Assembly: GCA_034722435.1 (NCBI GenBank)
Contig: JAYENX010000028.1
Coordinates: 1-40,433, forward strand
Source: Nanobdellota archaeon
GTDB taxonomy: Archaea; Nanobdellota; Nanobdellia; Woesearchaeales; JAHWHD01
DNA: 40,433 nt
Reading direction: 5' to 3'
Shown: piece after piece, positions 20,278 to 26,383 of the stretch
Numbering within the stretch: the first letter of the stretch is position 1
Layout of the letters: every line of letters starts with the position of its first letter
The notes under the pieces: generated by a model
What the model saw: only the letters and a program-made list of their open reading frames with translations
Told to the model about the DNA's origin: nothing
The model's database searches: none
Position numbers and translations under genes: made by a program

Positions 20278-21423
20278 ATGTTAGATTTAATCTGGTATTT
20301 CTTGCCAATGATTTTGTTTTTAGGAATTATTACTAGTTATCAAGATATTAAAATTGGTAAGATTAAGAATAAATGGGTTTTGTTAGGTTTAGTTTATGCG
20401 TTAGTTGTTAATTTAATTTTGATTTTTTATTTGAATTATACTTCAGGTATAAGGATACATTATGTTTATGAACTTTTTACTAATTTTATTTTTTCAGTTG
20501 TAGTTGGTTTTGGTTTATGGTATTTTGGTGTTTGGAGTGCCGCAGACGGGAAATTGTTTATTGCGTTTTCAGCTTTAGTTCCATTATCGGTGTATGCGCT
20601 TGGTTATCATGAATGGATTCCTTGTTTTACGTTGTTGTTAAACATCTTTTTGTTAAGCTTATTATTTTTGGTTTTGTTGATGTTTAGAAAAACTCAATTA
20701 CATAATTTAAAAAGGGTTGTTCGTTATTTTAAGACTGAATTTTTCAATTTTTACAATCTTTTTGTTTCGATTCTTAGTATTTTCACAATTTCTTGGTTTG
20801 TCCAGATATTGTTTAGATTTGCAGATATTGATGATTACTTGCTTAATTTTTTTTTAGTTATAGTCTTAATGTCTGTACTTAATAAAAAAGGAAGAAAGTT
20901 TCTTTATGTTTCAATACCTGTATTGATAATTAGACTTTTTGTAGATAGGTCAGTATTTAGTTATGAATTTTTGTTACAGTTTATTATTATCATTTTTTTA
21001 TGGAGAATCTTGCAAAGTTTTCTTTCTGGAAGCATCTCTAGGCTTGGGAAAGAGATATTTTCAAATGAGATTAAGCTTAAAGAGTTAAAGCCCGGTATGG
21101 TATTAAGCGATTCCATAATAAAAACTCGTAAATTAACACGGGTGGAGAGGTCTTTGATTGAAAAACAAATGTTAGTTACTGTTAAAAAAAATGATTATCA
21201 TTATATTTTAGGTGGAAAAGGTTCGGATAATGCTTCTAAATTTATTGATCCTGAAGCTGAAGGACTTAGTGAAAAAGAAGTTGAAGAAATAAATGGTCTT
21301 GAATTTGATAAGATTAGAGTTAGTCAAACAATTCCTTTTGCACCTTTGATCTTTTTAGGTGTTTTATTAACTATTTTGCTGAATGGAAATGTTTTAATAT
21401 CAGTAATTCTTGCTTTTTTTTGA
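20278..21423 (+). CDS. A24-family (prepilin/preflagellin type, FlaK/EppA-like) aspartic peptidase with extra TM helices
   Basis: First Asp in TSYQDIKIGKI, second in WSAADGKLF (GxGD variant), C-terminal archaeal peptidase domain ELKPGMVL...EGLS...IPFAPLIFLG; polytopic membrane protein. Confidence 0.8.
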   Translation: MLDLIWYFLPMILFLGIITSYQDIKIGKIKNKWVLLGLVYALVVNLILIFYLNYTSGIRIHYVYELFTNFIFSVVVGFGLWYFGVWSAADGKLFIAFSALVPLSVYALGYHEWIPCFTLLLNIFLLSLLFLVLLMFRKTQLHNLKRVVRYFKTEFFNFYNLFVSILSIFTISWFVQILFRFADIDDYLLNFFLVIVLMSVLNKKGRKFLYVSIPVLIIRLFVDRSVFSYEFLLQFIIIIFLWRILQSFLSGSISRLGKEIFSNEIKLKELKPGMVLSDSIIKTRKLTRVERSLIEKQMLVTVKKNDYHYILGGKGSDNASKFIDPEAEGLSEKEVEEINGLEFDKIRVSQTIPFAPLIFLGVLLTILLNGNVLISVILAFF

Positions 21424-21833
21424 TGGTAGAATTAAGCAATTTAGATATTGACGAGAAAGAAGGCGTTTGTTATATTTCTATAAATCCTAAGATATATCCT
21501 TTGGATGTAATATCTTCAGCAGCTTATGTTTTTTTAGATAGGGCTTATTTAATTTTAGACGGAGATCCTGATAATGAGGTTGTTGTAGAGATGAGATCAA
21601 AATTTGGTGCCGATCTAAAGCAATTAGGTCTTGAATTTAATAATGAACTCTTAAATTATCTAGAATATTCAAAAAGGGCTGAGAAGTCTTTGCCTATAAG
21701 GACTGCCATTATGCAAAGAGCTTTATTAACCAATGATGTTGATAAAGTTGAATCTGAAAATGTCAGTTATCTTGAAGATCCGGAAAATATTGCAGTACTT
21801 TGGGAAGAGAAGCATGAGAAAGATGAATCTTGA
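21423..21833 (+). CDS. hxsD: HxsD-like protein (His-Xaa-Ser system)
   Basis: INPKIYPLDVISSAAYVFLDRAY and EFNNELLNY...IRTAIMQRAL resemble HxsD. ATG overlaps the peptidase stop (TGATG). Confidence 0.8.
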   Translation: MVELSNLDIDEKEGVCYISINPKIYPLDVISSAAYVFLDRAYLILDGDPDNEVVVEMRSKFGADLKQLGLEFNNELLNYLEYSKRAEKSLPIRTAIMQRALLTNDVDKVESENVSYLEDPENIAVLWEEKHEKDES

Positions 21834-22065
21834 AATAAAAAATAGTTCTGTTGTTATTAAATTAAATAAAGTTTTTTATAATTTTGATACTGTGAAGTCT
21901 TCATTAGAAGATTATTCTGAATTAATGGTTGCTGAAGTTAATTATGATGATGTCGATAATATAATACTTGAACTCATACCAAAAAATTTATCCCTTTTAC
22001 CTCAAATTGGTCAAGAGTTCTGTAATTATGTTTTTGCTAAGATGAAGAATCAGCAGTTAATATAA
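21823..22065 (+). CDS. Second, short HxsD-like protein
   Basis: LNKVFYNFDTVKSSLEDY...IGQEFCNYVF parallels the preceding protein. Likely start is 21823 (or 21814) rather than 21733. Confidence 0.65.
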   Translation: MNLEIKNSSVVIKLNKVFYNFDTVKSSLEDYSELMVAEVNYDDVDNIILELIPKNLSLLPQIGQEFCNYVFAKMKNQQLI

Positions 22066-22106: not shown

Positions 22107-22919
22107 ATGGACGAAAATAATAAACCAGTACATTCAATATCTTTGTATAAAATTGCTTTAATCATTATTTTTATTATATTTATATTATTGGCAATTTACA
22201 TTTTTTTACCTAAAGAAGTGGTCGAATCAGGAATTGAATCAGAACTAGAGGTTACTACATCTCCTGAATTTGTTGATTCTTTGGCTCAAGATATTAAAAA
22301 ATTGGATGCTGAGTTAAATGTTTGTAAGTCTGATGATTTCATGAATAGGTGTAATGTTTTTAAGAATAAAGATGTAAGTATGTGTAATTCTATAAATAAT
22401 CCTGCTAGGGCTTTAGGTTGTAAAGTGGATTATTTTATTACGATTGGTGCAATGAACAACAATTTGGAAGAATGTGATTTTATTGCAGATGTTGAATTCG
22501 GTACTTATTGTAGAGCTTTGATATCAGAAAATCTTGAATTATGTAATGATTTGCAAGATCAAAGCAATAAGGATATTTGTATTTCTATAATTTCTTTGAT
22601 GAGCAATCTTGAAGCTGAACATACAGATTATTCTATAAATTATTATTATTATCTTAAAGCATTAAAAAGAAAGAGTGTTATAGAGTGTGATATGATTAGA
22701 GGATTTAATTCTGATGATTTTGAACTTATTAACCAGTGTAAATTAATTCTTGGTCAGAGTGTTGAGTGTACATCAAAAATAAAAGAGAGTTGTGAAGATG
22801 CTTATTATTATAAACTTGCATTATTGAAATCTAATGTTGATGATTGTGATTCTATAATTGATTCCAATTTAAAAGAAGATTGCAAGTTAGATGTAGAAGC
22901 AGGTATTACTTTTATTTAA
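22107..22919 (+). CDS. Membrane-anchored protein with tandem Cys-pair helical repeats
   Basis: N-terminal TM IALIIIFIIFILLAIYIFL; about seven C-x(7-16)-C modules, e.g. CDFIADVEFGTYC and CDSIIDSNLKEDC. Confidence 0.75.
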   Translation: MDENNKPVHSISLYKIALIIIFIIFILLAIYIFLPKEVVESGIESELEVTTSPEFVDSLAQDIKKLDAELNVCKSDDFMNRCNVFKNKDVSMCNSINNPARALGCKVDYFITIGAMNNNLEECDFIADVEFGTYCRALISENLELCNDLQDQSNKDICISIISLMSNLEAEHTDYSINYYYYLKALKRKSVIECDMIRGFNSDDFELINQCKLILGQSVECTSKIKESCEDAYYYKLALLKSNVDDCDSIIDSNLKEDCKLDVEAGITFI

Positions 22920-22920
22920 G

Positions 22921-24300
22921 ATGGATTTAGTAAAAAATTTTTTTAGAACTAGGAGAATTGATGATAATTATTTTCTTACTAATGATTATGGCGGTTATTG
23001 TATACTCAATGAAAAAGAGTATGGTGAGTTAAGATCAGGTAGTATTAGTGATGAGCTTAAACAGAGATTAAGAAATTCTCATATTCTTATAGATGAAAAA
23101 GATTTAGATAGATTGATTTCACTTACAAAAAAAAGATATTCATTTCTTATGCAAGGGACTTCTTTACATATCATCATTCCGACTTTACGGTGTAATATGA
23201 AATGTATTTATTGTCATGCTAGTTCTAGACCTGTTGATGATTTAAGTTGTAATATGGATGAAGAGATTGCGAAGAAGACCGTAGATTTTATTTTTCAATC
23301 TCCTGCAAAAGGGCTGTGTATTGAATTTCAGGGAGGTGAGCCTTTGCTTAATTGGCCTATCTTGAAATTTGTTGTTTCTTATGCTAAAGAGTTGAATAAA
23401 TCACATAATAAAAATCTTTTATTTACTGTTGTGACTAATCTTTCTTTGATGGATGAAGATAAAATGAATTTTTTTATAGATGAAGGTGTGGATATTTGTA
23501 CATCTCTTGATGGTCATAAAGAGTTACATGATAAGAACAGGCTTTTAGTTGGAGGCAGTAATTATGATCAAGTGTTATTTTGGCTGAAAAAAATAAATGA
23601 AGAATATTTAAAGAGAGGCATAAAAGAAAAACGTGTTCATGCACTCCCTACAATAACAAAAGAAAGTTTGAAATATTCTAGGCAGATAATTGATGAATAT
23701 ATTAAACTTGGATTGAAAGAGATACATATCAGATTTCTTAATAATTTAGGTGTTGCAAAGGATTCGTGGTTTAATATTAATTATAGTGTATATGATTTTA
23801 TGAAATTTTGGATTGATTCTGTTGAATATATTAAAGAGTTGCAAAAGCAAGGAATTGAGATCAATGAGCGCATGGTTAAGATAATGTTTTCAAAGATTGA
23901 AACTGGTGAAGACCCTAATTATCTTGATTTAAGAAGTCCTTGTGGTGCTGCGATTGGGCAGTTAGCTTATAGTTATAATGGTGATATATTTACTTGCGAT
24001 GAAGCACGTATGATTGGAAATAATGATCTGTTTCTTTTAGGGAATGTTAAATTTAGCAAGTATTCGGATATTGTAACTTGTGATAAAGCTTGCGCAACTG
24101 TAAACTCTTCAATAAATGATCAGTATATATGTGATACTTGTGCTTATAAGCCATACTGTGGACTTTGTCCTGTTTGTGCTTATGCTGAGCAAGGAACAAT
24201 AATAACTAAAGTTTCTGATTCAAGTAGATGTAAGATATTTAAGCAACAGTTTGATTGGGTTATCAAAGAAAAGTTTATAAACCTAAAAATCTCTAAATAG
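22921..24300 (+). CDS. hxsB: Radical SAM/SPASM maturase, HxsB-like
   Basis: TSLHIIIPTLRCNMKCIYCH (CxxxCxxC), IEFQGGEPLLN, LRSPCGAAIGQLAY..GDIFTCDE, CDTCAYKPYCGLCPVC SPASM. Confidence 0.9.
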   Translation: MDLVKNFFRTRRIDDNYFLTNDYGGYCILNEKEYGELRSGSISDELKQRLRNSHILIDEKDLDRLISLTKKRYSFLMQGTSLHIIIPTLRCNMKCIYCHASSRPVDDLSCNMDEEIAKKTVDFIFQSPAKGLCIEFQGGEPLLNWPILKFVVSYAKELNKSHNKNLLFTVVTNLSLMDEDKMNFFIDEGVDICTSLDGHKELHDKNRLLVGGSNYDQVLFWLKKINEEYLKRGIKEKRVHALPTITKESLKYSRQIIDEYIKLGLKEIHIRFLNNLGVAKDSWFNINYSVYDFMKFWIDSVEYIKELQKQGIEINERMVKIMFSKIETGEDPNYLDLRSPCGAAIGQLAYSYNGDIFTCDEARMIGNNDLFLLGNVKFSKYSDIVTCDKACATVNSSINDQYICDTCAYKPYCGLCPVCAYAEQGTIITKVSDSSRCKIFKQQFDWVIKEKFINLKISK

Positions 24301-24304
24301 TTAA

Positions 24305-24619
24305 ATGGCAGTTTTTCCTAAAATAAAGAGAAAAGTGAATTCTTTTTTACGTAATGAGGAAGGTAAAATTAGTAAAGAAAAGATTATCAAAGCTGGTGTT
24401 TTATTAAGTATTGTTGCAATTGGAACAGCGAAATCTGCTAAAGCAGATTGTGTCAGTTCACTTAATGCCAATACTGGAGGAACACATACAAATCATTGTA
24501 ACAGTCCTGTTGATGTTGTATACGATTCTGCTGCTATTACTGCTACAGGCACTCATGGTCATGCGACACATAGTAATCATGCTAGTCATGGAAGTCATGG
24601 TCACGGTGGTGCTTCTTGA
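24305..24619 (+). CDS. His-Xaa-Ser/Asn/Thr repeat precursor peptide (HxsA-like)
   Basis: 104 aa with 9 His; HAT-HSN-HAS-HGS-H puts His at exact 3-residue spacing (H86, 89, 92, 95, 98), plus HTN-HCN; sits between two rSAM genes with 4-6 bp gaps. Confidence 0.85.
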   Translation: MAVFPKIKRKVNSFLRNEEGKISKEKIIKAGVLLSIVAIGTAKSAKADCVSSLNANTGGTHTNHCNSPVDVVYDSAAITATGTHGHATHSNHASHGSHGHGGAS

Positions 24620-24625
24620 AGTAAA

Positions 24626-26383
24626 ATGAGTCAAAATAAAATAGAATTTAATTTTTTTGATGAATCTTTTCTCTTGTATCTTAAAACTTCAATTGATTTT
24701 GATAATATTGTTAAACTAAATTCGCAAACTTTTTTGGTATTAAAAGATTTTAAAAAATATATTGCTAAATTTATATATGGAAATCAATTGAAAATTGATG
24801 TTGATTCTGTAGTTAATTTTATTGACGCTTATAATGAACTGAATGTTAATACTCCAAAGATTGTTGAATTTAAAGAAGAAAATAATTTTTATTTTTTTTT
24901 AGTTGAATTTATTGAAGGCGTTTCTATGAAATCTAATGAGAAATATGATTTTATTAATCTTTCCAGGGTTAAGTTACTTGCAAAATCATTAGCTGATTTT
25001 CATGAACCTTGTTTGATGATGGGGGAATATGGATTACAGACAATAATACATGGGGATTTGAATATTGGTAATATTTTAAGATCTAATTCCAGATATTATT
25101 TTATAGATAATGTGATTAATTTAATGAAATTTTCAGAAAAACTTTATCAAGACCCTGCTTTAGATGTTGCAAAGATTATTTTGAGTTTAAGAGAATCTTG
25201 TTTCTGGAAACCTTCCTTTGAAAATAAATTTATCTTAGAATATATTAATCATTTGAGTGTTGGAGTAATTTATGATGCTTTTTTCAGAAAAGTTATTTCT
25301 TTAATAAAAGAATCAGAAATGCAATTGAAAAATCCTAAACTACTTTTGTCTCATGCATCTTTTCAGTTAACTTCTGATTGTAATCTTAATTGTAAATATT
25401 GTTATCAACATGAAAAATCTGGAAAAAGTATGAGTTTTGATGAATTTACTAATGCATTTTCTAAATTATTGGGCTTTTTGAATAAAAATGTTGAGTTTGT
25501 ATTTACTGGTGGAGAACCGCTTTTGAACTTTGACCTTTTAAAAGAGGCAGTGAATAGTATTAAAACAGTTAAAGAGTTAAATCCGCAGTTTAAGATATTG
25601 ACTAATGGTCTTTTGTTGAATTCTGAAATAATTTCTTTTTTAAAAGAGAATGAATTTTTAGTTGCGATAAGTATTGATGGTGATAAGAGTAATGTTTTTA
25701 GAATATGTGATGAGCTAAAGTTACAATTAGAGTTAGAAAATAGTGTAAAATTGCTTGTTAGTAGTGGTTGTAATTATTATGCTCGTATGACTATTCATCC
25801 TACGAGTGCGAAATTTTTATATGATGATTTTAAGTATTTGAAGTCTTTAGGTGTTAAGAAGTTTGCGATTGAACCTTGTTTGAATTCAGGTATTTTTTGG
25901 GGTGAACATTCTGAAGACTTTTTGAGTAATTATAGAAAGATAGTGGAAAATTTAGCTCTTGATTTTAATACTGATTCTGAATTGTTTTTTAGAGATTTAA
26001 ATTTTTTTGATACTAAAATTTTAGAATCTACGAATCCTGCAGAAGAATTTTATTGTGCAAATTGTTCGGATACTGTGTTTGTATCTGCTGAAGGGGGAAT
26101 ATATTTTGCTGAGTGCGGTATGGGTGCTTATTTTAAGAAAAAAAAATATTTTATTGGCGATTTATTAGGTGGTCTTGACTATGATCTAATTAATAAATCT
26201 AGATCGGAGCTAATTCAGAAATTTCAGATAAATGATCAAGAGATATATTGTGGTAAACCTTGTCTAAGTTGTAATGTAGTAACTGGAGAAAAATTAGGTG
26301 ATCAAGAATTTTTAGATCTTTATAAATTAAATCAAAAAAGATATGCTGTTGCTAGGGATGTTTATGAGAAAATTAAGGTCTAA
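24626..26383 (+). CDS. Fusion of an APH/choline-kinase-like phosphotransferase and a radical SAM (SPASM/Twitch-type) domain
   Basis: Kinase half: TPKIV, LVEFIEG, LADFH, IHGDLNIGNIL, FIDN, DPALDVA. rSAM half: CNLNCKYC at aa 252, FTGGEPLLN, TNG, ISIDG, C-terminal Cys clusters. No stop between the halves. Confidence 0.85.
   Translation: MSQNKIEFNFFDESFLLYLKTSIDFDNIVKLNSQTFLVLKDFKKYIAKFIYGNQLKIDVDSVVNFIDAYNELNVNTPKIVEFKEENNFYFFLVEFIEGVSMKSNEKYDFINLSRVKLLAKSLADFHEPCLMMGEYGLQTIIHGDLNIGNILRSNSRYYFIDNVINLMKFSEKLYQDPALDVAKIILSLRESCFWKPSFENKFILEYINHLSVGVIYDAFFRKVISLIKESEMQLKNPKLLLSHASFQLTSDCNLNCKYCYQHEKSGKSMSFDEFTNAFSKLLGFLNKNVEFVFTGGEPLLNFDLLKEAVNSIKTVKELNPQFKILTNGLLLNSEIISFLKENEFLVAISIDGDKSNVFRICDELKLQLELENSVKLLVSSGCNYYARMTIHPTSAKFLYDDFKYLKSLGVKKFAIEPCLNSGIFWGEHSEDFLSNYRKIVENLALDFNTDSELFFRDLNFFDTKILESTNPAEEFYCANCSDTVFVSAEGGIYFAECGMGAYFKKKKYFIGDLLGGLDYDLINKSRSELIQKFQINDQEIYCGKPCLSCNVVTGEKLGDQEFLDLYKLNQKRYAVARDVYEKIKV

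What the first reader, a model, noticed from the sequence alone, without database searches (positions are those of the whole stretch)
24485..24619. Two separate His-triplet cores with non-canonical third residues (HxN, HxT as well as HxS)
Seen: HTN-HCN (aa 61-66), a spacer SPVDVVYDSAAITATG, then HG-HAT-HSN-HAS-HGS-HG-H; only two triplets are true His-Xaa-Ser, and there are two Cys (C49, C65). Known: some rSAM/SPASM maturases crosslink an aromatic residue to the beta-carbon of residue +2 (three-residue cyclophanes), and Cys can form rSAM thioether links. Inference: tandem His cyclophanes or a rigid poly-imidazole metal-binding strand. Different third residues and two cores could explain why several rSAM paralogs are needed.
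Basis: partly seen in the sequence, partly recalled or inferred. Interest (0 to 1): 0.75.

Follow-up and report, generated by a model that had tools for sequence, protein, structure and literature searches.

The report
Archaeal His-Xaa-Ser (HxsA-like) precursor peptide core
The histidine triplets are real and form the business end of a small exported peptide that a tiny (DPANN) archaeon modifies with radical-SAM enzymes; it belongs to a large, unstudied relative of the bacterial HXS anti-phage system, and its odd triplets and "two cores" are normal for that family.

Summary
Observation confirmed. ORF 24305-24619 (+, 104 aa) reads exactly as described: H61-T-N-H64-C-N, a 17-residue spacer, then H84, H86, H89, H92, H95, H98, H100, with C49 and C65. 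The period-3 spacing beats shuffles (P about 1e-4) and is not a DNA tandem repeat.

It is an HxsA-class precursor, matching NCBIfam HxsA3 at E=2e-8 but below cut-off. It sits directly after a bona fide HxsB, with two HxsD-like proteins, two HxsC-like radical-SAM proteins, a kinase-rSAM fusion and an A24 peptidase.

A profile of eight relatives finds 683 protein clusters, in DPANN archaea, CPR bacteria, Elusimicrobia and Omnitrophota. Homologues keep the period-3 His spacing.
- Third residue: Ser 61%, Asn 12%, Thr 1%.
- "HAT" lies in a two-residue insertion, so it is not a family triplet.
- The "two cores" are a family-wide bipartite motif, H-x-N and [ST]-H-x-H, usually 17 residues apart across a predicted beta-hairpin. 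A tail of 0-11 HxS/N repeats follows.
- C49/C65 covary (14/14), so they act as a pair.
- The number of rSAM paralogs does not track third-residue diversity.

The chemistry is unknown. The only experimental precedent is E. coli HxsA, with +8 Da on one repeat, not -2 Da per triplet. This scan has met the family many times on other DNA. Moderate interest.

The parts
24305..24619 (+). HxsA-class precursor peptide gene (104 aa plus TGA stop)
   Evidence: ORF. NCBIfam HxsA3 E=1.9e-8, 34 bits (cut-off 65), covering model positions 2-79 of 81. It is the only copy in its own genome. The profile of eight relatives finds 683 related clusters.
24305..24397 (+). Conserved leader, aa 1-31 (P5, K8-K10, F14-L15, E18, G20-K-I-S-K24, G31)
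   Evidence: Column conservation of 84-99% in 126 members. AF2 predicts a short helix at 11-16. Presumed recognition element for HxsB/HxsD; G31 is a candidate A24 cleavage point (inference).
24398..24445 (+). Hydrophobic export segment ending in an A-x-A-like site (aa 32-47)
   Evidence: AF2 helix 24-44. Hydrophobic columns 32-43 and small residues at 45-47 across the family.
24449..24499 (+). Covarying Cys pair C49 ... C65
   Evidence: All 14 of 14 members with H-C-N also have an upstream Cys, against 37 of 104 of the others. Fisher p=2.5e-6, not corrected for relatedness (examples).
24485..24502 (+). Upstream His motif, duplicated here: H61-T-N and H64-C-N
   Evidence: Family H-x-N motif: His 94%, Asn 84%. 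The second copy (aligned as an insertion found in 10 or fewer of 126) is the one at family-typical distance from H84.
24503..24553 (+). Fixed-length spacer, predicted beta-hairpin (aa 67-83)
   Evidence: AF2 strands 70-74 and 79-83, block pLDDT about 81. The spacing between the two His motifs is 17 in 53 of 116 members and 15-20 in 82%.
24551..24604 (+). [ST]-H-x-H anchor (T83-H84-G-H86) plus period-3 His tail (H89, H92, H95, H98, H100)
   Evidence: H84 98%, H86 76%, H89 87%, H92 91%, H95 70%, H98 51%. Tail length varies from 0 to 11 triplets.
22921..24300 (+). HxsB radical SAM/SPASM maturase
   Evidence: TIGR03978 452 bits, above the cut-off of 370. Closest solved structure is CteB, 5WGG, E=3e-33.
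21420..22065 (+). Two HxsD-like genes (21423-21833, and about 21814-22065)
   Evidence: TIGR03976 38 bits (cut-off 50) and NF038315 36 bits (cut-off 41). Conserved upstream of HxsB in relatives.
20278..21423 (+). A24 (prepilin-type) aspartyl peptidase with archaeal C-terminal domain
   Evidence: Pfam Arc_PepC 4e-6 and Peptidase_A24 weak. Asp residues in YQD and AADGK motifs are present. Homologue next to the system in 11 of 17 and 33 of 78 loci.
24626..26383 (+). APH-like kinase domain fused to a radical SAM/SPASM domain
   Evidence: Pfam APH (weak) plus Radical_SAM. The kinase part has no homologue in the 95 related loci, so it is a lineage-specific accessory.
27187..28898 (-). Two HxsC-like radical SAM genes (27187-28011 and 28008-28898)
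   Evidence: TIGR03977 171 bits (cut-off 268) and NF038332 HxsC4 172 bits (cut-off 500).
26373..27221 (-). DUF483 protein
   Evidence: Pfam PF04467 E=2e-7. Found in only 3 of 78 related loci.
22107..22919 (+). Cys-rich 270-aa membrane-anchored protein of unknown family
   Evidence: No Pfam or NCBIfam hit. Homologue in 2 of 78 loci.

Best explanation
The ORF encodes the precursor of an archaeal HXS-type (His-Xaa-Ser) radical-SAM maturation system. It is a diverged, leader-bearing small form of HxsA, nearest to NCBIfam HxsA3/HxsA4, in a Woesearchaeota-like DPANN genome.

Anatomy:
- aa 1-31: a strongly conserved leader, presumed docking site for HxsB/HxsD.
- G31 plus a 13-residue hydrophobic stretch and an A-x-A-like site: export and cleavage.
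- aa 48-104: the exported core.

The core is a bipartite His centre with a tail, not two repeat arrays. A nearly invariant H-x-N motif (here duplicated, HTN-HCN) and a nearly invariant [ST]-H-x-H lie at the open end of a fixed-length predicted beta-hairpin. A variable-length tail of H-x-(S/N) triplets follows. C49 and C65 form a pair, most simply a disulfide closing the loop in front of the H-x-N motif.

Inferred mechanism: HxsB (SPASM, CteB-like), the two HxsC-like enzymes and the extra rSAM domain act on the leader-bound peptide in the cytoplasm and install one or a few site-specific covalent changes on His/Ser/Asn positions. This is by analogy with the +8 Da change on one S-H-x-S-S repeat of E. 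coli HxsA. The leader is then removed and the His-rich product works outside the membrane.

Shown: sequence, family membership at superfamily level, conservation pattern, synteny. Inferred: the hairpin juxtaposition, the disulfide, the site and kind of modification, and the extracellular role.
For: Sequence and periodicity.

HxsB lies directly upstream and scores above the curated cut-off; HxsC-, HxsD- and HxsA3-like matches are sub-threshold but best-in-library.

57 of 78 loci found with an HxsB alignment carry an HxsA-like ORF beside HxsB. They come from Woesearchaeota, Nanoarchaeota, Aenigmatarchaeota, Iainarchaeum, Parcubacteria, Saccharibacteria, Elusimicrobia and Omnitrophota. 13 of 61 genomes of the same order have an HxsB above cut-off.

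The profile finds 683 clusters. 125 of 126 members match HxsA3 at E<=1e-3.

Conservation columns, spacing and variable tail. AF2 hairpin 70-74/79-83 at pLDDT about 81. Cys covariation.

Experimental precedent for rSAM-dependent processing, one-site +8 Da modification and export of HxsA: PMC13128918.
Against: The peptide fails the curated cut-offs of all HxsA models (34 vs 65; 19.8 vs 121.65; 18.7 vs 55). The HxsC- and HxsD-like proteins also fall below theirs.

It lacks the peptidoglycan-binding domain of E. coli HxsA. Its mature region has no Lys or Arg, and family-wide K+R is 2.6% against D+E 8%, so the electrostatic DNA-binding model does not transfer simply.

The window peptide also lacks the C-terminal aromatic residue that 60% of members have.

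The AF2 model is only moderately confident (mean pLDDT 68, pTM 0.29). I could not read the coordinates, so contact between the two His motifs is inferred from topology alone. No modification has been measured for any member of this small-peptide family.
Confidence: 0.72

Rival explanations
1. Tandem three-residue His cyclophanes (triceptide-like): each H-x-(S/N/T) triplet is closed by a His C2 to C-beta bond on residue +2, giving -2 Da per triplet. Different rSAM paralogs would serve different third residues.
For: The motif shape fits the aromatic-X-X rule of triceptides. His cyclophanes on HAA, HTK and HNR motifs are proven for HaaB, HtkB and YhhB (PMC11499958). Ser or Asn at position 3 is strongly conserved (73% together). 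Several SPASM-type rSAM enzymes are present.
Against: The best scores against cyclophane-synthase models are 45-65 bits against cut-offs of 310-445 (AmcB, GrrM/OscB, YhhB). HxsB is much closer to thioether formers (PapB 136, SCIFF 134 bits; CteB structure E=3e-33). rSAM gene number does not follow third-residue diversity (rho 0.09, p 0.55), and all-Ser cores still have up to 5 nearby rSAM genes. 15 of 126 members have no triplet tail at all yet keep the two invariant His motifs. E. coli HxsA shows +8 Da at one repeat only.
Confidence: 0.2
2. Envelope antiviral effector, functionally equivalent to E. coli HxsA: the matured, exported His array blocks entry of viral DNA at the cell surface.
For: The maturase set is homologous (HxsB above cut-off, HxsC/HxsD-like). 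The peptide has an export-type hydrophobic segment. The HXS system of E. coli is a proven anti-phage system in which every HxS repeat is needed (PMC13128918).
Against: There is no peptidoglycan-binding domain, and DPANN archaea have no peptidoglycan periplasm. The core is acidic to neutral with no Lys or Arg. The locus lies among housekeeping and surface genes (RNase P p30, A24 peptidase), not in a recognisable defence island. PADLOC gives only generic rSAM hits, though that library predates the HXS paper.
Confidence: 0.3
3. Metal-binding His strand or centre: the exported peptide chelates Ni, Zn, Cu or Fe through the H-x-N ... T-H-x-H centre and the tail. The rSAM changes would only rigidify or protect it.
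For: There are nine His in 44 residues. His makes up 14% of family mature regions, alongside Ser, Asn, Asp and Gly and almost no Lys or Arg. Invariant His residues flank a hairpin, a plausible preorganised site.
Against: No metal transporter, chaperone or metalloenzyme is conserved in the neighbourhood. His-rich tails bind metals unspecifically, so the composition alone proves little. A need for up to five or more rSAM enzymes is not explained.
Confidence: 0.25
4. Chance open reading frame or low-complexity artefact with no product.
For: The ORF is short and has no Pfam hit.
Against: Hundreds of homologues share a conserved leader and core and a fixed position next to HxsB in archaea and bacteria. 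The shuffle test gives P about 1e-4.
Confidence: 0.01

Closest known systems
Canonical HXS anti-phage system of Pseudomonadota (HxsD-HxsB-HxsC-HxsA; TIGR03976-03979; Li et al., Nat Commun 2026, PMC13128918)
   Same: An HxsB orthologue by curated score. HxsC- and HxsD-like partners. A substrate with an N-terminal export signal and His-x-Ser triplets at period 3. Maturation presumably comes before export.
   Different: HxsA there is about 214 aa with a peptidoglycan-binding domain, five basic HxS repeats and a 22-residue signal peptide. Here the peptide is 104 aa with a 31-residue conserved leader, no further domain, an acidic core, a bipartite H-x-N / T-H-x-H motif, Asn as a frequent third residue, duplicated HxsD and HxsC, an extra kinase-rSAM fusion and an A24 peptidase. 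Gene order is D-D'-x-B-A rather than D-B-C-A. That paper reports 99.7% of systems in Pseudomonadota; this type is in DPANN archaea and CPR-like bacteria.
NCBIfam HxsA3 (NF038309) and HxsA4 (NF038313) small His-Xaa-Ser repeat proteins
   Same: The same leader and overall layout. The window peptide aligns to HxsA3 model positions 2-79 of 81. 125 of 126 family members match HxsA3 and 43 match HxsA4 at E<=1e-3. One relative (P0060) passes the HxsA4 cut-off.
   Different: The window peptide scores 34 bits (cut-off 65) and 18.7 bits (cut-off 55). All 10 clusters looked up, where a source gives any name, are called 'hypothetical protein'. No experimental work on these forms was found.
Triceptides / three-residue cyclophane RiPPs with His (HaaA/HaaB, HtkA/HtkB, YhhA/YhhB; PMC11499958)
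   Same: His-X-X motifs in a leader-bearing peptide next to rSAM/SPASM enzymes, with a possible His C2 to C-beta link.
   Different: The maturases are not members of the cyclophane-synthase families by score. There are many more repeats. The peptide carries an export signal and a membrane peptidase. The modification is untested.
SCIFF/ranthipeptide thioether maturases (CteB, PapB)
   Same: These are the closest characterised and solved relatives of the HxsB domain (5WGG E=3e-33; PapB and SCIFF models 134-136 bits).
   Different: Their substrates are Cys-rich. 60 of 182 family peptides examined have no Cys after the leader, so Cys thioethers cannot be the family's common chemistry.

Membership tests
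HXS system (Haft and Basu models TIGR03976-03979) | HxsB radical SAM/SPASM maturase scoring above the TIGR03978 cut-off | tested here: met
   452 bits against a cut-off of 370 for window 22921-24297.
HXS system (Haft and Basu models TIGR03976-03979) | HxsC radical SAM partner above the TIGR03977 cut-off | tested here: not met
   171 bits and 117 bits against a cut-off of 267.9. HxsC or HxsC4 is nevertheless the best family for both paralogs.
HXS system (Haft and Basu models TIGR03976-03979) | HxsD small protein above the TIGR03976 cut-off | tested here: not met
   38.4 bits against 50 for 21423-21830. The second copy scores 36 bits against 41 for the HxsD-like model NF038315.
HXS system (Haft and Basu models TIGR03976-03979) | HxsA above the TIGR03979 cut-off, with a peptidoglycan-binding domain | tested here: not met
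   19.8 bits against 121.65. No Pfam domain in the 104-aa peptide.
HXS system (Haft and Basu models TIGR03976-03979) | His-Xaa-Ser triplets at period 3 in the substrate | tested here: met
   Five His at period 3, with two strict HxS, one HxN and one HxT. The spacing is conserved in homologues.
HXS system (Haft and Basu models TIGR03976-03979) | rSAM-dependent +8 Da modification, N-terminal processing and anti-phage activity | not testable with these tools
   Known only for E. coli HxsA (PMC13128918). Testing here needs expression and mass spectrometry.
NCBIfam HxsA3 / HxsA4 | Score above the curated cut-off (65 / 55 bits) | tested here: not met
   34 and 18.7 bits, although the HxsA3 alignment covers nearly the full model length.
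Triceptides (three-residue cyclophane RiPPs) | Maturase belongs to a cyclophane-synthase family (for example GrrM/OscB, AmcB, YhhB models) | tested here: not met
   Best scores are 45-65 bits against cut-offs of 310-445 for all rSAM proteins of the locus.
Triceptides (three-residue cyclophane RiPPs) | Aromatic-X-X motif in the core | tested here: met
   H-x-(S/N) motifs, with His as the aromatic residue.
Triceptides (three-residue cyclophane RiPPs) | C-C cross-link from the aromatic ring to C-beta of residue +2 (-2 Da) | not testable with these tools
   Needs MS/MS and NMR of the product.
Type IV pilin-like (class III signal peptide) proteins | Short charged leader, cleavage after Gly, then a hydrophobic helix of about 20 residues that stays in the mature protein | tested here: inconclusive
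   G31 is 94% conserved and an A24 peptidase is syntenic. However, the leader is 31 residues, the hydrophobic stretch is only about 13 residues and it ends in an A-x-A-like site typical of Sec signals.

The most novel reading that the evidence does not exclude
The real radical-SAM target is the invariant bipartite centre rather than the repeat tail. In this reading the H-x-N motif and the [ST]-H-x-H motif are held together by the fixed 17-residue hairpin. The enzymes would weld them into a new cross-linked, possibly metal-binding, His-containing structure (a peptide-derived cofactor-like centre). The H-x-S/N tail would only be a variable multivalent array. This would be a new kind of His cross-link, shared by hundreds of DPANN and CPR lineages.
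Probability: 0.2. Interest if true: 0.75.

Novelty: new variant of a known kind. Interest (0 to 1): 0.4.

Why it matters
The HXS system has only just been given a function, blocking phage DNA entry in E. coli, and its chemistry (+8 Da on one His-x-Ser repeat) is unsolved. The published survey puts 99.7% of systems in Pseudomonadota.

This peptide belongs to a much larger, unnamed branch: 683 clusters at 50% identity, in DPANN archaea, CPR bacteria, Elusimicrobia and Omnitrophota. That branch has a simpler, leader-bearing substrate.

Its conservation pattern separates what is invariant (H-x-N, a fixed spacer, T-H-x-H) from what is variable (the number and third residue of the triplets). This gives concrete residues to mutate and a small, expressible substrate for working out the Hxs radical chemistry.

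The unusual triplets and the 'two cores' are normal family features and do not explain the enzyme paralogs.

Tried and rejected
(1) The search for related loci with the eight-peptide alignment failed because no stretch was conserved enough to build a pattern. I used an HxsB alignment instead.

(2) UGA read-through. The precursor and the next gene are in the same frame, separated by TGA plus two codons, and many relatives end in Trp. I rejected recoding because TGA ends 12 of 33 ORFs here, several in ATGA overlaps.

(3) DNA tandem duplication as the source of the periodicity: none found.

(4) A regex-anchored Cys table classified only 62 sequences and was dropped. It was replaced by a column-based count.

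(5) PADLOC (2023) gave only generic viperin-type rSAM hits, so it is uninformative.

(6) P0008, a 2131-aa hit with 12 matched stretches, is low-complexity noise.

(7) The kinase domain as a family-wide Ser-activating step (phosphorylation/elimination of the HxS serines): rejected as a general mechanism, because no homologue of the kinase part exists in the 95 related loci. It may still matter in this one lineage.

(8) Thioether chemistry suggested by the CteB/PapB similarity of HxsB: rejected as the common chemistry, because many family peptides lack Cys.

(9) Literature searches for characterised small HxsA forms or DPANN rSAM peptides found nothing beyond Li et al. 2026.

Full report
**1. 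What is in the sequence.**
ORF 24305-24619 on the + strand encodes a 104-aa peptide. Residues 84-100 carry His at 84, 86, 89, 92, 95, 98 and 100. Cys occurs only at 49 and 65. The finding's coordinates (24485-24619) run exactly from codon 61 to the stop.

Five HxxH steps, or a chain of five His at period 3, occur in about 1e-4 of 200,000 shuffles of the whole peptide. The figure is about 4e-3 when only the last 44 residues are shuffled. There is no DNA tandem repeat and the triplets use different codons. The window is 31% G+C. TGA is a normal stop codon here (12 of 33 ORFs), so the C-terminus GGAS is real.

**2. What it is.**
- The gene directly upstream (22921-24300) is an HxsB radical SAM/SPASM maturase. 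It scores 452 bits against a curated cut-off of 370.
- The peptide's best family is NCBIfam HxsA3 (E=1.9e-8, 34 bits, cut-off 65, model positions 2-79 of 81). Weaker matches go to canonical HxsA and to HxsA4.
- Two HxsD-like genes lie upstream (21423-21833 and about 21814-22065).
- Two HxsC-like rSAM genes lie on the opposite strand (27187-28011 and 28008-28898).
- The locus also holds an APH-like kinase fused to an rSAM/SPASM domain (24626-26383), a DUF483 protein, a Cys-rich 270-aa protein and an A24 prepilin-type peptidase (20278-21423).
- RNase P p30 and the archaeal A24 C-terminal domain mark the genome as archaeal.
- The closest HxsB relatives are in Woesearchaeota and Nanoarchaeota MAGs.
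- The genome (1.3 Mb, 94.5% complete) has a single precursor gene.

**3. The family.**
A direct search found only two close relatives. HxsB-anchored loci in genomes of the same order gave more. A profile of eight peptides then found 683 clusters at E<=1e-3 and 200 at E<=1e-10, among 1.84 billion representatives.

Of 126 aligned members, 125 match HxsA3 and 43 match HxsA4 at E<=1e-3. The ones I scanned individually mostly stay below the cut-offs. Where a source names the 10 clusters I looked up, the name is "hypothetical protein", for example in Altiarchaeota and Anstonellales MAGs.

An HxsB alignment recovered 593 related places in species-representative genomes. The best 78 come from Woesearchaeota, Nanoarchaeota, Aenigmatarchaeota, Iainarchaeum, Parcubacteria, Saccharibacteria, Microgenomates, Elusimicrobia, Omnitrophota and a few others. 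An HxsA-like ORF sits beside HxsB in 57 of the 78. In the window's own order, 13 of 61 genomes searched have an HxsB above cut-off. That tally includes two unpublished genomes, G001 and G002, which had only weak matches. No other claim rests on them.

**4. Anatomy of the core against the family**.
- *Leader.* P5, K8-K10, F14, L15, E18, G20, I22, S23, K24 and G31 are 83-99% conserved.
- *Export segment.* A hydrophobic stretch of about 13 residues follows, ending in small residues.
- *Upstream His motif.* A single H-x-N motif is nearly invariant (His 94%, Asn 84%). The window has it twice in tandem. The HCN copy lies 20 residues before H84. The family distance is 17 in 46% of members and 15-20 in 82%, and the window also has a two-residue insertion in the spacer. 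HCN is therefore probably the homologous copy and HTN the extra one.
- *Downstream His motif.* H84 is 98% conserved, H86 76%, H89 87%, H92 91%, H95 70% and H98 51%.
- *The "HAT" triplet.* A87-T88 lie in an insertion that only 48 of 126 members have; most read T-H-x-H-H-x-S. "HAT" is therefore not a homologous triplet.
- *Third residues.* Over 488 HxxH steps in 143 representatives the third residue is Ser 61.5%, His 12.5%, Asn 11.9% and Thr 1.4%. At the first repeat position Asn reaches 21%.
- *Tail length.* The number of triplets after the anchor ranges from 0 (15 members) to 11. In the bacterial loci it reaches dozens.

The picture is an invariant bipartite His centre plus a variable tail, not two repeat cores.

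**5. Structure prediction.**
AF2 with the 126-sequence alignment gives a mean pLDDT of 68. It predicts a short helix at 11-16, a long helix at 24-44, and a beta-hairpin at 70-74/79-83 in the best-scoring part of the core (block pLDDT 81). The His tail is disordered.

The H-x-N motif lies just before strand 1 and T-H-x-H just after strand 2. A hairpin would therefore put them side by side. I could not read the coordinates, so this is a topological inference.

**6. The cysteines.**
All 14 members whose H-x-N motif is H-C-N also have a Cys between the export segment and the motif, usually exactly one. Among the others, 37 of 104 do (Fisher p=2.5e-6, not corrected for relatedness). Of the 182 leader-bearing family peptides examined (representatives plus locus hits), 60 have no Cys after the leader.

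C49 and C65 therefore behave as a pair, most simply a disulfide in an exported peptide. Cys chemistry is not a family requirement. This holds even though HxsB's nearest characterised relatives are the thioether formers CteB and PapB.

**7. Do the odd triplets explain the paralogs?**
I used 43 loci with at least 4 kb on both sides of the precursor. The number of rSAM genes within 6.5 kb does not correlate with the number of distinct third residues (Spearman rho 0.09, p 0.55). Four loci with only Ser at the third position have five rSAM genes.

There is a weak positive trend with the number of triplets (rho 0.32) and of distinct triplets (rho 0.45). The loci are related, so I give that little weight.

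The kinase domain of the fusion protein has no homologue in any of the 95 related loci. DUF483 and the Cys-rich protein are also rare. The conserved archaeal core is A24 peptidase, HxsD, HxsD-like, HxsB, HxsA, followed by variable HxsC-like rSAM genes.

**8. Comparison with what is known.**
Li et al. (Nat Commun 2026, PMC13128918) showed that E. coli HxsD-HxsB-HxsC-HxsA is an anti-phage system.
- HxsA there is about 214 aa, with a signal peptide, five basic HxS repeats and a peptidoglycan-binding domain.
- It is processed at the N-terminus and exported.
- It carries one +8 Da (+C -4H) change on the last repeat (S-H-R-S-S).
- Every repeat is needed for function.
- The chemistry is unsolved, and 99.7% of systems were found in Pseudomonadota.

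The peptide here shares the maturase family, the export logic and the triplets. It differs in size, leader, lack of further domains and charge. It has no Lys or Arg in the mature part, and family-wide K+R is 2.6% against D+E 8%.

His three-residue cyclophanes are established for HaaB, HtkB and YhhB (PMC11499958). None of the four rSAM proteins here comes near the cut-off of a cyclophane-synthase model. I found no paper on the small HxsA3/HxsA4-type peptides or on such systems in DPANN or CPR organisms.

**9. Most likely working.**
The leader docks the peptide on HxsB/HxsD. HxsB and the HxsC-like enzymes install one or a few site-specific covalent changes on His/Ser/Asn positions. The leader is cut off, by the syntenic A24 peptidase after G31, by signal peptidase after the A-x-A-like site at 45-47, or by both. 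The His-rich core then acts outside the membrane.

I put 0.72 on this overall identity and outline. Within it, the readings are not mutually exclusive:
- tandem cyclophanes on every triplet: about 0.2;
- an antiviral surface role like E. coli HxsA: about 0.3;
- a metal-binding role: about 0.25.

The most novel reading not excluded is that the invariant bipartite centre, not the tail, is the radical-SAM target (about 0.2).

**10. Earlier notes of this scan.**
After my own synteny work I looked at earlier notes. The leader and A24 peptidase of this same gene were already followed up (e1-5776149), with a conclusion that matches my. The scan has met expanded HxsA-type loci on other DNA many times (227 notes in at least 169 genomes). 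These include an archaeal His-Xaa-Asn variant (e1-5228251), which fits my count of Asn as the second commonest true third residue. I did not use these notes as evidence.

**11. Verdict.**
The feature is real and conserved. It is a diverged small-peptide variant of the HxsA substrate class. The particular points raised, non-canonical third residues and two cores, are normal family traits. The proposed link to enzyme paralogs is not supported, and the chemistry remains open. Interest is moderate (0.4). Its value lies mainly in giving a compact substrate and a short list of invariant residues for solving Hxs chemistry.

Noticed in passing
P0021, P0046, P0047, P0067, P0149, P0150 (family members of 249-277 aa): Six longer relatives carry a Hint/intein-like domain of about 145 residues, running from C-F-P-A-G-T to L-V-H-N. 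It is inserted between the His repeats and the usual C-terminal tail (GGWC, GPCSW and similar). Pfam Intein_splicing, PT-HINT and Hint_2 score above threshold in P0149, and PT-HINT also in P0067 and P0150. Only P0021 has Cys at the +1 position, so most could cleave but not splice. This hints at autoprocessing or attachment at the C-terminus.
   Followed up: partly
window 24617-24628: The precursor and the kinase-rSAM fusion gene are in the same reading frame, separated only by TGA and two codons. Many relatives end in Trp just where the TGA stands. TGA is a normal stop in this window, so I treat this as coincidence.
   Followed up: yes
window 24626-25330 (aa 1-235 of the fusion protein): The APH-like kinase domain, with an HGDLNIGN catalytic loop, is fused to an rSAM/SPASM domain. 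It has no homologue in any of the 95 related Hxs-type loci fetched, so it is a lineage-specific addition. It could phosphorylate Ser or Thr of the core.
   Followed up: partly
L055:7345-8298:+ (Woesearchaeota chromosome OY970338.1): An open frame of about 318 codons, matched by the HxsA profile, contains 64 HxxH steps, almost pure H-(S/G)-S repeats. It lies in a genome that also has a second HxsB locus with a short, repeat-poor precursor (L041).
   Followed up: no
family C-termini: 86 of 143 family representatives end in an aromatic residue (Tyr 46, Trp 37, Phe 3), typically H-x-S-Y or H-G-S/Q-W, and 15 end in Cys. The window peptide ends in G-G-A-S and lacks this feature. The conserved terminal aromatic may be a cross-link partner or a recognition mark.
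   Followed up: no
loci L038-L115: HxsB proteins 40-60% identical to the window's occur both in DPANN archaea and in CPR bacteria, Elusimicrobia and Omnitrophota, always with the same peptide leader. This suggests exchange of the system between ultra-small archaea and bacteria sharing habitats.
   Followed up: no
L075, L099, L110, L087, L057 (bacterial loci): Homologues of the A24-type peptidase also lie near HxsB in some bacterial loci (Omnitrophota, Elusimicrobia, Sulfurovum, Spirochaetes). The peptidase link is therefore not confined to archaea.
   Followed up: no
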